Shown one piece after another: positions 30,942 to 34,634 of a stretch of 60,325 bases of DNA. Position 1 is the stretch's first letter. Each line of letters begins with the position of its first letter. The DNA is taken from assembly GCA_029717555.1 (NCBI GenBank), contig JAMDHS010000043.1, positions 124,001 through 184,325 on the forward strand. The letters are read 5' to 3'. Both the position numbers and the translations under genes were made by a program. Under the pieces are notes generated by a model. The model was not told the DNA's origin and did not search any database. It saw only the letters and a list, made by a program, of their open reading frames with translations. This DNA is from Peribolospora baueri (Eukaryota).

Positions 30942-33900
30942 TCATTGCCCGTCCCCACGTCTAGGAAGCATGAACGGCTCAAAAAAGCGGCCTGGAGAAG
31001 GAGGCAGAGAGGGAGGACAGGAGGGAACGATGAACGTCGTCTTTCGAGCCGGGCCCTCCTGCCGCGACGCGCTCCAGCTCACCGATCTGATCCACCTCGT
31101 CCATTCCAACGATCAAGCTGACGTACTGGTCGGGCCGAACAACGACGGCACATCCACGCGACGAATCGATGTCGAGCTTGCGGTAGATGTGACCGAAGCC
31201 AAAATTGTACGAGGGAACGTCGCAGAAGACCTGTTTGTCGGACGATGGTGTGGAGGCGCTGAGGTTAACGAGAACGAACAAGAGACTGGGAACAGGGCGC
31301 GAAGAAAAGAAAGAAAAAGACTAGAACCCACCTTGTTATAGTCTTTACCCATACAGTGTGCAAACAAAATAAGCCGGGGGGAACACGGTGAGCCTCTAAG
31401 CCAAAGTCAGCAAGACGGCGACGAGCACATTACGCTTGTTCACCTCGCAAACCGAACCTGCCCTTCCGCGGCCAGAGGATCTCAGGCAGGCGATCGATGT
31501 CCATATCCTCTCGAGGACAGTCGAGCACTGTGAGCACCTCCAAGATGGAGTCGATGTCCTGGCCTGCCGGCGTGGCTTGAACGATGGGAGAGCGAGGCGA
31601 GGTGGCGAGGAAGTGGCAGGCCTGCATGAAGGAGAAGGGAGCGCGCCACGACACCAAACGTCAGTCCCATCGTCCGTCCGTGAGCTTCAACGCGGACCAC
31701 ACGCACATCAACCAAGCGTCTCCAACGATCTCCATCTCGCACGTCCCCAGCGAATAGCACTATGCGCCAGCGCCCATCGGCGGGCATGGCATGGCCGAGC
31801 TGGATCGGTCGAGCGTCGCAAAGACGGACGACTTGCTTGGACGGGAAGCGCTGCGATCGTCAAAAAGAAGGCGGGGGGGTGGTACGAGGGCGAAAGCAGA
31901 CGACGGAGATGTCGGTCAAGTACACGAGCGATAAAAGAAGGCTGCGCCCGCTGCTCTCTCTCACCATACCAATAATGAGGCCCTTGGCCAGCTCTTGGCG
32001 ACAACGTATGACATTGTCTCCGTTCGCTTTTGCCTGCCCATCTCCGTCCGTTGTGTCGCTTGGCGTACTGGGCTTGACGGTCAGCATGGAAGGTTCATAG
32101 CGTACAGCCGTGCCGGCAGTGAAGCGTCCCGACTTGATAAACATCTGCACGGAATGAACGAGGGACGGGGACGAAGGACAGCAGACAAGATAATCAACCT
32201 CCCAGACGCAATCATTTACTGGCGCCAGAGAAAGGGGTGCCCACCTCTACAAAGACAGCCGGGTCGATGCCGCCCTGTGGAGGAGGCAAAGGACAAGAAG
32301 CGGACTTTCAGCACACACCTGCTTGCGCTCGCCCTAAATGGCTCTTTCTTCCACACAGCCCAAACTCACGTCACCCGCCACCTTGGAGGGCTTTTGACTG
32401 AACATTTTGGCCCACATCCGATCAAAGTCAATCAGCTCTTGCGCGACGGCCTGACGCTCTGTGCTGTAAGTTGAAAGGAGTGAGGGAGAAGCGTGGCCGT
32501 GTAGAACGGAGGCCAGCTTCCAGCCGAGGTTGCTGCACGAGGGGAAGGGTTTGTCGAGAGAGTATGGGATGTGAGGGAGATGGGAAGGACGGACAGCAGC
32601 CGGGCCGGGCAATTCTTGGACTCACAAGGCGTCGGCTATCGAGACGTTCATACCCTGTCGTCAAGCGAAAGCCTTTGTGAGCGCGTCGGATTGACTAGCG
32701 AGAGACATAAACCGCCACGCCTTCCCTATCGCCTCACTCACTTGGCCGGCCTTGGGCGAATGCTGATGAGCAGCATCACCCATGATAAACACCCTTTCAT
32801 TCTCATCCGAAAAGCGGTCTGCGAGGCGCTGTCCTATTTCACTTTGTGGGAGGAAGAGGACGAGGGTGTGTTAACGGCATATGAGAAAAACGAGCGCAAT
32901 GAACGAACAAGGGGTTGCAAGGAGGTCTGGTCCACTCAAACGGCTGCTTACTAGACGGACCACCAGACCACTTCGGAGACATCGAGGGTGTAAGGGTGCA
33001 GGATTTTGCGAGCGACTGATATGAGGTGCTCCGCAGTGATGTTCTTCGCGCTCTGAGTGAGGGACATTCCGGCCCCGGAGAAAAAGCATGGCGGCAGATT
33101 TGAGGTGGACGAGCAGGGGTATGGGACGGCGCACAGGACTTAAACGGCCACTAACCACTCGCTGCCCTTCTGCCAATTCATCTAGCTTCATATAGAACCT
33201 GCAGTAGCAGCAATATTTTACAATGCATCAGCAGAGCCCTTGGCGATATTGAGAAGCCGTCTGGCTTACCTTGTCATATAGCCTCCGTCTTTGGGAATAT
33301 TGAGAATGTTGCCATGTTCGGCGGAATGGATGGCACATTTGAGGCGAATGTCAGGGAAGTTGGTCACGGCCAAGATGTCCATAACTCCCCAGGCCTGGTT
33401 GGCGTAGTCGCCGCGGAGAGGGAGGTCGACGGCGCTGTCGAGAACGCGAAAACATGGGAAGAGTGAGAGAACGGGCTAGGGGAGAAGGATGACTGTAGGC
33501 ACTTGCGGGGGAAGAACATGCAACGAGCGCCGTAGCCAGCCCACCTTCTGACCTTGCTCCTCGCTCCATCGCACCCAACGACGTATTTCGCCCTCACGAC
33601 CTCTGTCTCTTCTTCGCGTCCGGCGTCCGTTCGCTTCAATGTCACTTCTACGGGATATAGCTCGGCGTCGGAGTTAAGAAGGCGGAGGGAAGAGAAGGAG
33701 AGATTGTAATCCGGTTCAAGGTCGCCTGAGAGGGAGAAACGGCGGTCGAGATTGGGATGGAGTGGAAATGACGAGAATTCGAACGAAACTGTCAATCGAG
33801 GTCGGGATCACGGCCGATAGTCGATCGAGCTCGTCTCCTACCTGTTTCTTTCATCGTGTCGAGGAAGAATTCGTGGAGGCGCGCTTGCTGGGAGGCCGTG

Positions 33901-34634
33901 TGTGAGCGAGGGTCGAGATGAGAGCATCGTTGCGTCAGTCGCTGGGCGTCTACCAGACAGCAAAGCCATGACACGCTCACCGAGAGGATGACGTGGGGGA
34001 ACTCGGAAAGTTCTTCCTCCGTCTGTACGGAGCATGCATCATCGTAAGAGGACCTTCCAGTGCAACCGGTACGCGAAAGGGGAGCCGCTCAAGGCGGTAA
34101 GGCGAGGAGACTCACGTCTCTTGTTCGCTTCGTGCGAGTTATGGTCCCATCGGGGGCGGGAGACCAGAAAGTCATTTCTGGGGCATGATGGATGCGCGGA
34201 GGAAAGAAAGGTCAAGCGGTAATGCGAGAGACGGAGACAGCACCGGTGTATAGAGAGCATCAATTCGACGAACCACTGATCCAATGGCCCTCCTTCACTA
34301 CACGCTCGGCAAAGCCCAGCGCTTGGAACATCTCCACGCTCCGGCACTGAACGCCATCGGCCTGTCCCACCTCGAGCCTCTGGGAGCGCTTGTCGACGAG
34401 TCGGACATTGATCGAGTGGAAGCCAGCAAGTTGAGTTGCGAGACACACTGTAATGGGCGAAGTTCGGGTGCGGTGAGCGAGAGCAGCTGAGAGAAGAAGA
34501 GCTCTGATCCGTAGAAGACGGCACTTACATCCGGCCGGGCCCGAGCCGACTATGAGTACGTCTACGCGGCTCTTGTCCGTGGGCCGCGGCGGAGGCGGGG
34601 GTGGGTTGACACCGTCGAGGTAGAAGGTGCGCAT
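30942..34634 (-). CDS. FAD-dependent aromatic monooxygenase, phenol 2-monooxygenase / 3-hydroxybenzoate 4-hydroxylase (MobA) type, about 18 introns
   Basis: [115 protein letters not shown], and C-terminal VVVRPDQYV. Confidence 0.93.

What the first reader, a model, noticed from the sequence alone, without database searches (positions are those of the whole stretch)
30942..34634. Bacterial MobA-like aromatic hydroxylase carrying about 18 spliceosomal introns (candidate ancient horizontal transfer)
Seen: the spliced protein reads [147 protein letters not shown]. Knowledge (from recall): these track Comamonas 3-hydroxybenzoate 4-hydroxylase MobA and bacterial phenol 2-monooxygenases (e.g. [31 protein letters not shown]-terminal MQFHLNG) much more closely than Trichosporon-type fungal phenol hydroxylase. 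Inference: a bacterial gene acquired and then heavily intronised, including an 11-nt microexon at 31332-31342, giving a new aromatic-catabolic entry step.
Basis: partly seen in the sequence, partly recalled or inferred. Interest (0 to 1): 0.75.

Follow-up and report, generated by a model that had tools for sequence, protein, structure and literature searches.

The report
Fungal enzyme basal to bacterial MobA
This intact, 18-intron fungal gene encodes an enzyme that most likely adds oxygen to plant-derived hydroxybenzoic acids, and it branches outside the bacterial enzymes it resembles, which hints that the bacteria got their version from fungi and not the reverse.

Summary
The gene is real as described: minus strand, 19 exons, 18 GT-AG introns, an 11-nt microexon, 650 aa, no internal stop. 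It is a phenol-hydroxylase-family flavoprotein, closer to Comamonas MobA than to Trichosporon PHHY. It keeps MobA's Asp/His/Lys/Tyr pocket, so it probably makes protocatechuate from 3- or 4-hydroxybenzoate (inferred).

A bacterial donor is not supported. Dothideomycete fungi carry equally close proteins (50-53%). In every tree the protein is sister to Dothideomycetes plus all sampled bacterial MobA (100/100), and grouping it with bacteria is rejected (AU p 0.012, then about 0.0001). Three indel characters give the same order.

Bacterial MobA thus sits inside fungal diversity, suggesting fungus-to-bacteria transfer. The root test is borderline (p 0.03-0.12), and a donor among unsampled stem bacteria, or an ascomycete donor, stays open. 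No orthologue from a related fungus was found, so intron ancestry is mostly untested; no RNA confirms splicing. The scan had not noted this elsewhere.

The parts
30942..34634 (-). Whole coding region: 19 exons, 18 introns, 650-aa PHHY/MobA-family flavoprotein hydroxylase
34719..34726 (-). TATATAAA about 85 nt upstream of the ATG, candidate TATA box
   Evidence: read; not tested
34529..34634 (-). Exon 1: MobA-type N-terminal extension and GxGxxG FAD-binding motif
34274..34447 (-). Exon 2: holds Asp66 (MobA Asp75); PF01494
34116..34177 (-). Exon 3
33981..34022 (-). Exon 4: holds His124 (MobA His135)
33842..33887 (-). Exon 5
33545..33725 (-). Exon 6: DG fingerprint
33270..33434 (-). Exon 7: MobA-type NQAWGV motif and Lys236 (MobA Lys247)
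33156..33198 (-). Exon 8: holds Tyr261 (MobA Tyr271)
32952..33052 (-). Exon 9
32742..32841 (-). Exon 10 (AAG acceptor): GD fingerprint; lacks the 8-residue insert of Dothideomycete and bacterial MobA
32626..32654 (-). Exon 11
32370..32532 (-). Exon 12
32245..32274 (-). Exon 13; the intron after it is the one position shared with the PHHY-type paralogue on contig C24
31965..32144 (-). Exon 14: carries a 20-residue insert where several fungal PHHY-type proteins also have one
31707..31850 (-). Exon 15: PF07976 dimerisation domain
31444..31621 (-). Exon 16
31332..31342 (-). Exon 17: 11-nt microexon (AAG acceptor) completing the DY.K motif
31083..31230 (-). Exon 18: PF07976; long fungal-type Ser-Tyr loop absent from sampled bacteria
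30942..30991 (-). Exon 19 with stop codon

Best explanation
An intact nuclear gene for a group A flavoprotein aromatic hydroxylase of the PHHY/PhhA/MobA subfamily. Inferred mechanism, by homology: a homodimer binds FAD, is reduced by NAD(P)H once substrate is bound, forms the C4a-hydroperoxyflavin with O2 and hydroxylates a hydroxybenzoate ortho to its OH, giving protocatechuate for ring cleavage. His124/Lys236 would hold the carboxylate and Asp66/Tyr261 the phenolic OH. My odds: 3-hydroxybenzoate 55%, 4-hydroxybenzoate 30%, other phenolic acid 15%. Origin: a surviving early branch of an old fungal MobA-type lineage, inherited within fungi, kept here and in Dothideomycetes and not found in other fungi sampled. 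The bacterial MobA clade derives from the Dothideomycete side of this lineage by fungus-to-bacteria transfer. Shown: gene structure, motifs, tree position. Inferred: substrate, activity, vertical descent, direction of transfer.
For: Tree position: IQ-TREE LG+F+G4, 45 rows x 581 columns: Elsinoe + Capnodiales-type + P0038 + bacteria exclude the query at 100/100; query plus that clade 97.8/100; adding a Pezizomycotina clade 100/100; bacteria alone 98.6/95 (read from the newick). The query holds the same place in FastTree with 133, 50 and 81 rows and in the unfinished LG+C20 PMSF search. AU rejects query+bacteria (p 0.012; 0.00013 LG and 0.00005 PMSF after a longer search) and all 12 alternative placements on the fixed tree. 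Nested indels: N-terminal extension in query, 90/100 Dothideomycete-type, 68/78 bacterial, 0/19 other fungal rows. The 8-residue insert before the GD motif is in 104/104 parsed Dothideomycete-type and most bacterial rows, and is missing in the query, 15/16 parsed other fungi and 6/6 parsed outgroups. The long Ser-Tyr loop is in the query and 84/84 parsed Capnodiales-type rows, with an equal-length loop in most other fungi shown, and in 0/243 parsed bacterial or unnamed rows. Of 41 representatives outside the MobA clade, 19 were looked up: 15 named, all fungi of both Dikarya phyla, 4 unnamed. Bacterial members found with fungal queries are all MobA type (80 of 80 kept loci 52-73% to P0236; 36 of 36 placed) and patchy (11/401 Actinomycetota, 23/401 Pseudomonadota, 1/301 Acidobacteriota, centres included). 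Roots on or inside bacterial MobA are rejected on the fixed ingroup tree (AU p at most 0.013). Query-to-Dothideomycete distance (1.12-1.18) is like that of the genome's own PHHY paralogue to ascomycete PHHY types (1.03-1.08). Pocket residues mapped through 2dkh; Lys247 of 3HB4H and the Asp/Tyr pair are named in PMC12915361 section 9. Two intradiol dioxygenase loci exist in the genome, type not determined.
Against: The root is not settled: the best tree that joins bacterial MobA to the outgroup had AU p 0.12 (short search), 0.030 under LG and 0.055 under PMSF, and the outgroup moved between models. No orthologue from a related basidiomycete turned up, so vertical descent needs many losses. Elsinoe is as far from Zasmidium (1.19) as the query is, odd for plain orthologues of neighbouring orders. 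The Capnodiales-type genes look intronless (full-length calls on long metagenome contigs; inferred, DNA not seen), which also fits passage through bacteria. The two rows nearest the fungus-bacterium boundary, P0213 and P0038, are unnamed; if P0213 is bacterial, the Ser-Tyr loop argument weakens. Five bacterial or unnamed rows have a secondarily short loop, so the 8-residue insert can be lost. In one search Nocardia fell outside the Capnodiales-plus-bacteria group. Query+PhhA-like clade was not rejected (p 0.13), though it was on the fixed tree. 22 of the 41 deep representatives were not looked up. Only 1 of 18 introns is shared with a paralogue. His/Lys are shared with the PhhA-like clade, so they do not fix the substrate. 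The query has Gln in the HxHSPK motif where 561 of 564 rows have Thr.
Confidence: 0.45

Rival explanations
1. Modified first-reader view: the MobA type passed early from fungi (or an unknown source) into a stem bacterial lineage that is extinct or unsampled, and returned to fungi two or three times (this basidiomycete, Elsinoe, Capnodiales). The 18 introns were gained after arrival. This includes the case where the whole fungal family came from bacteria once.
For: Patchy fungal range; apparently intronless Capnodiales-type genes (inferred); Elsinoe-Zasmidium distance too long for plain orthologues; 17 of 18 intron positions not seen in either paralogue; intron density 9.2 per kb against 4.4 and 5.6 in the paralogues; root on bacterial MobA only borderline rejected. 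Precedent for heavy intron gain after transfer to basidiomycetes: PMC3584928 (abstract read).
Against: Needs two or three extra transfers from a donor never seen: 0/243 parsed bacterial or unnamed rows keep the ancestral loop, and 36 of 36 newly placed bacterial proteins fall in crown MobA.
Confidence: 0.25
2. Fungus-to-fungus transfer: an intron-poor ascomycete ancestor of the MobA type gave the gene to this basidiomycete lineage, which then added introns. Bacteria are still recipients.
For: The query is flanked in the tree by ascomycete clades (Xylaria/Lasiodiplodia/Chaetothyriales below, Dothideomycetes above); grouping with the basidiomycete clade Pseudohyphozyma/Mycena/Naganishia is rejected; no relative found in other basidiomycetes.
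Against: The distance to Dothideomycetes matches an Ascomycota-Basidiomycota split; query+Dothideomycetes as one clade is rejected (p 0.002); one intron coincides with the native paralogue (weak).
Confidence: 0.22
3. One reading: the gene came from within the living bacterial MobA clade (Comamonas, Rhodobacterales or Actinobacteria type) and was then intronised.
For: The best BLAST scores are to bacteria (53%); N-terminal extension, SEFPH and NQAWGV motifs are MobA type.
Against: Every placement inside or beside bacteria is rejected under two models. It needs loss of the 8-residue insert and regain of a fungal-type loop. Identity is equally high to Dothideomycete proteins.
Confidence: 0.04
4. 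On function only: the enzyme is this fungus's 4-hydroxybenzoate 3-hydroxylase (the PhhA role), not a 3-hydroxybenzoate 4-hydroxylase.
For: The PF07976 search found three loci in the genome (counts are lower bounds); the other two lack the His/Lys pair or are far diverged, so no separate PhhA-like gene was found. PhhA has the equivalent Lys (Lys221, PMC12915361 section 9).
Against: Pocket-adjacent motifs SEFPH and NQAWGV are MobA type and occur in 0/19 other fungal rows. The PhhA label of the neighbouring clade is recalled and inferred: no PhhA sequence was in hand.
Confidence: 0.3

Closest known systems
Comamonas testosteroni 3-hydroxybenzoate 4-hydroxylase MobA (PDB 2dkh/2dki) and bacterial NF006144/PRK08294 proteins
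   Same: Domain order PF01494 + PF07976; N-terminal extension; Asp75/His135/Lys247/Tyr271 kept as Asp66/His124/Lys236/Tyr261; 45-54% identity to full-length MobA-type hits.
   Different: 18 introns; lacks the 8-residue insert; keeps the fungal Ser-Tyr loop and a 20-residue insert; branches outside the clade.
Unstudied MobA-type proteins of Dothideomycetes (Zasmidium P0003, Acidomyces P0134, Peltaster P0208, Elsinoe P0362 and others)
   Same: Equal identity (median 50%, max 53%), same pocket residues, same Ser-Tyr loop.
   Different: They carry the 8-residue insert, appear intronless (inferred) and group with bacteria to the exclusion of the query.
Aspergillus PhhA, 4-hydroxybenzoate 3-hydroxylase (PMC12915361, PMC12388069; passages read)
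   Same: Same subfamily; basic Lys at the MobA Lys247 position; product protocatechuate.
   Different: The clade taken as PhhA-like (Xylaria, Lasiodiplodia, Chaetothyriales; label inferred) is 44-46% identical on trimmed columns and lacks the extension and the SEFPH/NQAWGV motifs.
Trichosporon cutaneum phenol hydroxylase PHHY (1pn0, 1foh) and Trametes TvMNX3 (8r2u)
   Same: Same three-domain family, Asp/Tyr pair, short loop before the GD motif.
   Different: Arg in place of Lys and no His at the carboxylate site in PHHY types; weaker match; this genome has its own PHHY-type gene on contig C24 (38%, 9 introns).
Bacterial alpha-amylase transferred to Agaricomycotina with massive intron gain (PMC3584928, abstract)
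   Different: There the abstract reports an actinobacterial donor; here the fungal gene lies outside the bacterial clade.
Fungus-to-bacteria transfer of ChiC/D chitinases (PMC6348609, abstract and section 24)
   Same: Bacterial clade rooted within fungi, then spread among bacteria.
   Different: Different enzyme; there the transfer was dated, here the root is borderline and undated.

Membership tests
Group A flavoprotein monooxygenases, PHHY/MobA subfamily | GxGxxG, DG and GD FAD fingerprints; PF01494 | tested here: met
Group A flavoprotein monooxygenases, PHHY/MobA subfamily | C-terminal thioredoxin-like dimerisation domain PF07976 | tested here: met
   exons 15 and 18 score 57 and 58 bits against a cut-off of 24.9
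Group A flavoprotein monooxygenases, PHHY/MobA subfamily | Conserved active-site Asp and Tyr | tested here: met
   Asp66, Tyr261
NCBIfam NF006144 (PRK08294) | Whole-protein score of 560 bits or more | tested here: inconclusive
   Only single exons could be scanned; NF006144 was the best family for all 3. Xylaria and Pseudohyphozyma proteins, farther from MobA than the query, pass (600, 607 bits), so the model is not specific to bacteria.
MobA-type 3-hydroxybenzoate 4-hydroxylase | His/Lys carboxylate site and MobA sequence signatures | tested here: met
   His124, Lys236, extension, SEFPH, NQAWGV; the role of His135 is recalled, Lys247 is named in PMC12915361
MobA-type 3-hydroxybenzoate 4-hydroxylase | Hydroxylates 3-hydroxybenzoate at C4 with NADPH | not testable with these tools
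   no assay
Bacterial MobA clade (descent) | Nests within or is sister to bacterial MobA | tested here: not met
Bacterial MobA clade (descent) | 8-residue insert before the GD motif and short C-terminal loop | tested here: not met
PHHY-type phenol/hydroquinone hydroxylase | Arg at the Lys247 position, no His135; groups with PHHY types | tested here: not met
PhhA-type 4-hydroxybenzoate 3-hydroxylase | One clade with the PhhA-like proteins | tested here: inconclusive
   not rejected (p 0.13), rejected on the fixed tree (p 0.005 and 0.008); no PhhA sequence in hand
Vertically inherited fungal gene | Intron positions shared with fungal homologues | tested here: inconclusive
   1 of 18 shared with C24, 0 of 18 with C88; chance 0.09-0.39; no genomic DNA of other intron-bearing homologues was available
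Vertically inherited fungal gene | Orthologues in related fungi following the species tree | tested here: inconclusive
   none found; each lists only the best 80-150 hits, and bacteria crowd them

The most novel reading that the evidence does not exclude
The bacterial 3-hydroxybenzoate 4-hydroxylase (MobA / PRK08294) clade, now scattered through Pseudomonadota and Actinomycetota, came from a fungus, and this 18-intron gene is a surviving intermediate that records the steps from fungal phenol hydroxylase to bacterial MobA: His/Lys carboxylate site, then N-terminal extension, then 8-residue insert, then loss of the C-terminal loop.
Probability: 0.6. Interest if true: 0.62.

Novelty: new member of a known kind. 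Interest (0 to 1): 0.43.

Why it matters
The enzyme belongs to a known family, and intron gain after gene transfer is already described, so the finding as first written is not new. What may matter is the reversed direction. If bacterial MobA came from fungi, it is a case of eukaryote-to-bacteria transfer of a catabolic enzyme, it would explain why MobA resembles yeast phenol hydroxylase and is rare and patchy in bacteria, and fungal calibrations could date bacterial 3-hydroxybenzoate use. The work also points to an unstudied group of fungal MobA-type enzymes, candidates for fungal 3-hydroxybenzoate 4-hydroxylase activity; the passages I read of a 2025 Aspergillus niger review (PMC12388069) name no gene for that step. 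I did not find this reading in seven library searches; the library lacks most subscription papers.

Tried and rejected
The profile for one search was dominated by its bacterial scaffold, so it was not tuned to the query. Two exon-on-scaffold alignments were misaligned and discarded. Base composition is uninformative: GC3 0.67 against 0.72 and 0.76 in the paralogues and 0.55 in a neighbour. No catabolic gene cluster: neighbours are SLD3, a BCKD/PDK-type kinase, PMT, a RasGEF and a BBE-like oxidase. Bacterial contamination is rejected: spliceosomal introns and eukaryotic neighbours on one contig. Pseudogene is rejected on sequence: open frame and full motifs. PMSF bootstrap was not finished; PMSF was used for AU tests only. 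Rows dropped: L174 was extracted in a wrong frame, fell among outgroups and was removed; L184 and L188 also gave no hit to the query; P0361, L108, L112 and P0499 were left out from then on to shorten the run; L202 (unpublished genome G273) and L211 (short) were left out of the tree. The two Atlas look-ups only restated the family and carry no claim. Earlier-note searches for the same finding were blank; one search gave one unrelated Neisseria cluster. The host's lineage was not tested here.
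Full report
OBSERVATION. The gene lies on the minus strand from ATG 34634 to TGA 30942. Nineteen exons joined at GT..AG junctions give 1953 nt and a 650-residue protein without an internal stop; the 18 introns are 71-116 nt. The microexon completes the conserved DY.K motif and keeps the frame of exon 18. Sixteen of 18 introns break the protein if kept; introns 1 and 4 read through and are inferred from homology. AAG acceptors and an 11-nt exon also occur in the family paralogues of this genome, so these features are ordinary here. 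No RNA confirms the model.

FAMILY. Exon 7 matches MobA (2dkh, E 9e-16) better than PHHY (1foh, 8.6e-11). Exons hit PF01494, PF07976 and NF006144. A PF07976 search of the genome found three loci (lower bound): this gene, a PHHY-type gene on contig C24 (38% identical, 9 introns) and a diverged gene on C88 (29%, 12 introns). Mapping through P0236 and 2dkh gives Asp66, His124, Lys236 and Tyr261 for MobA Asp75, His135, Lys247 and Tyr271. The Asp/Tyr pair and Lys247 are discussed in PMC12915361 (passages and section 9 read; its supplementary tree, Fig. S1B, and alignment, Fig. S10, were not looked at and may bear on the clade labels). The role of His135 is recalled from the MobA structure paper, which I did not see. 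PHHY types have Arg and lack the His. The enzyme is therefore most likely an NAD(P)H- and O2-dependent hydroxybenzoate hydroxylase making protocatechuate. The His/Lys pair is shared with the PhhA-like clade, so 3- versus 4-hydroxybenzoate is not settled; the motifs SEFPH and NQAWGV are MobA type and occur in 0 of 19 other fungal rows. No catabolic cluster surrounds the gene; two intradiol dioxygenase loci lie elsewhere, type not determined.

WHO ELSE HAS IT. The third hit of the exon 7 search was a Zasmidium protein. Searching with it gave about 100 proteins at 60-89% identity, whose named members are Capnodiales-type Dothideomycete genera (assignment recalled) apart from two labelled Quercus suber, and then proteins at 55-57%, one named as a bacterium. 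The representative search added Elsinoe. Against the spliced query these fungal proteins score like the rest: median 50.3%, max 53.3% (104 rows) against median 49.7%, max 53.8% (232 full-length rows of 253). On trimmed columns the top rows are an unnamed Capnodiales-type protein (56.9%) and two bacteria (56.6%). No closer relative was found; all these searches list only their best hits.

TREES. FastTree on 133 rows put the query outside a 99-supported group of Elsinoe, Capnodiales types and bacteria, on a ladder of fungal sequences. Of 41 representatives below the query in that tree, 19 were looked up: 15 are named and all are fungi (Saitoella, Agaricomycetes, Naganishia, Rhodotorula, Pseudohyphozyma, Atractiella, several Pezizomycotina), 4 are unnamed, 22 were not looked up. 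IQ-TREE LG+F+G4 on 45 rows with six bacterial outgroups gave, as SH-aLRT/UFBoot: bacteria 98.6/95; with P0038 93.8/89; with Capnodiales types and Elsinoe 100/100; with the query 97.8/100; with Xylaria/Lasiodiplodia/Chaetothyriales 100/100. The PMSF search kept the query's place but was not run to the end. AU tests rejected query+bacteria (p 0.012; 0.00013 and 0.00005), query+Dothideomycetes (0.002) and query+Rhodobacterales (0.00002), and all 12 alternative placements on the fixed tree under both models. Query+PhhA-like was not rejected (p 0.13). To guard against biased sampling I searched 1103 bacterial genomes with a fungal protein: 11 of 401 Actinomycetota (this tally includes unpublished genome G273; its sequence was not used), 23 of 401 Pseudomonadota and 1 of 301 Acidobacteriota matched, centres included. 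All 37 loci examined were MobA type, and the 36 long enough to place fell on the bacterial side. In plasmids, sampled hits to a fungal query drop from 38-44% full length to 32% or less over the FAD domain only (50 of 229 records listed).

INDELS. Three characters nest in the order of the tree. (a) The N-terminal extension is in the query, 90 of 100 Dothideomycete-type, 68 of 78 bacterial and 0 of 19 other fungal rows. (b) An insert of about 8 residues before the GD motif is in all 104 parsed Dothideomycete-type rows and most bacterial rows, and is missing in the query, 15 of 16 parsed other fungi and 6 of 6 parsed outgroups; five bacterial or unnamed rows are short again, so it can be lost. 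(c) The long Ser-Tyr loop near the C-terminus is in the query and 84 of 84 parsed Capnodiales-type rows (104 examined), with a loop of like length in most other fungi shown, and in 0 of 243 parsed bacterial or unnamed rows (334 examined).

ROOT AND DIRECTION. On the fixed ingroup tree, roots on the bacterial stem, inside bacteria or on the Capnodiales stem are rejected (AU p below 0.001 under LG, at most 0.013 under PMSF), while several fungal branches remain possible. With the ingroup free, the best tree joining bacterial MobA to the outgroup had p 0.12 in a short search and 0.030 (LG) and 0.055 (PMSF) in a longer one. The outgroups are distant and moved between models. Bacterial rows are shallower than fungal rows (median pairwise identity 63% against 40%). 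Fungus-to-bacteria is favoured, not proven. Under either root the query does not descend from crown bacterial MobA.

INTRONS. One of 18 positions (after exon 13, phase 0) coincides with the C24 paralogue in a gap-free stretch; none with C88. Chance gives at least one match 9-39% of the time. No genomic DNA of other intron-bearing homologues was available. Capnodiales-type genes seem intronless, inferred from full-length calls on long metagenome contigs. The query is about twice as intron-dense as its paralogues. Whether the introns are old or gained cannot be told.

WEIGHING. Vertical survival of an old fungal lineage (0.45) needs one transfer, to bacteria, and many losses; it fits the distances (query to Dothideomycetes 1.12-1.18, own PHHY paralogue to ascomycete PHHY types 1.03-1.08). 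Return from an unsampled stem bacterium (0.25) fits the patchy range, the intronless Capnodiales genes and the long Elsinoe-Zasmidium distance, but needs several transfers from a donor never seen; the unnamed rows P0213 and P0038 are the places to look. An ascomycete donor (0.22) fits the flanking clades. A donor in crown MobA (0.04) failed its tests. The host is a smut-group basidiomycete according to earlier notes of this scan, which I did not test; the argument needs only that it is a fungus outside the Dothideomycetes.

LITERATURE. Read: PMC13653839 (passages, section 20: 3HB4H scarcely studied, route rare in bacteria); PMC12915361 (passages, section 9: PhhA, PHHY, HQH and MobA form one clade); PMC12388069 and PMC8262893 (passages: A. 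niger turns m-hydroxybenzoate into protocatechuate; no gene named in what I saw); PMC3584928 (abstract: intron gain after bacterial transfer to basidiomycetes); PMC6348609 (abstract, section 24: fungal origin of bacterial chitinases). No supplements were opened. Searches showed no paper on fungal MobA-type genes or a fungal origin of MobA, judged from listings and these passages; one search added nothing on smuts. Most subscription papers, including the MobA structure paper and the hydroxybenzoate hydroxylase survey cited as ref. 31 in PMC12915361, were not seen.

VERDICT. Observation confirmed. A new member of a known enzyme family. The proposed bacterial origin is not supported as stated; the gene is better read as an early fungal branch that may show bacterial MobA to be of fungal origin. 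Interest 0.43; novel case probability 0.6, interest 0.62 if true.

Noticed in passing
window 28046-30552, minus strand: Intron-rich BBE-like FAD oxidase gene just downstream (weak PF01565 and PF08031 matches below cut-off). The frame jumps by one base near 30460 with no visible intron, so it may be broken or mis-assembled.
   Followed up: partly
window 17186-25429, plus strand: A 2747-codon open frame with RasGEF_N, RasGEF and weak PH matches and no intron over 8 kb, unusual in so intron-rich a genome.
   Followed up: partly
L024:388-3884 (G000:C88): Diverged third PF07976 gene, 717 aa, 12 introns, with 11-nt and 27-nt exons; Ile in place of the pocket Lys/Arg; groups with a Saitoella protein at 97.9/100. 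Substrate unknown.
   Followed up: partly
L023, minus strand (G000:C24): Native PHHY-type phenol/hydroquinone hydroxylase gene, 676 aa, 9 introns.
   Followed up: partly
window 32742-32841 (exon 10): Gln replaces the Thr of the HTHSPK motif, which is Thr in 561 of 564 family rows; it lies next to the FAD-binding GD motif.
   Followed up: no
proteins P0121-P0222, P0362: An unstudied, apparently intronless MobA-type clade in Capnodiales-type fungi and Elsinoe; several are mislabelled 'tetracycline 6-hydroxylase', two are filed under Quercus suber.
   Followed up: partly
proteins P0213 and P0038: Unnamed Logan proteins at the fungus-bacterium boundary of the tree: P0213 is sister to the Capnodiales types, P0038 is sister to all bacteria and has an intermediate C-terminal loop.
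   Followed up: partly
window 34448-34528 and 33888-33980: Introns 1 and 4 have no in-frame stop and lengths divisible by three, so retention would give longer proteins.
   Followed up: no
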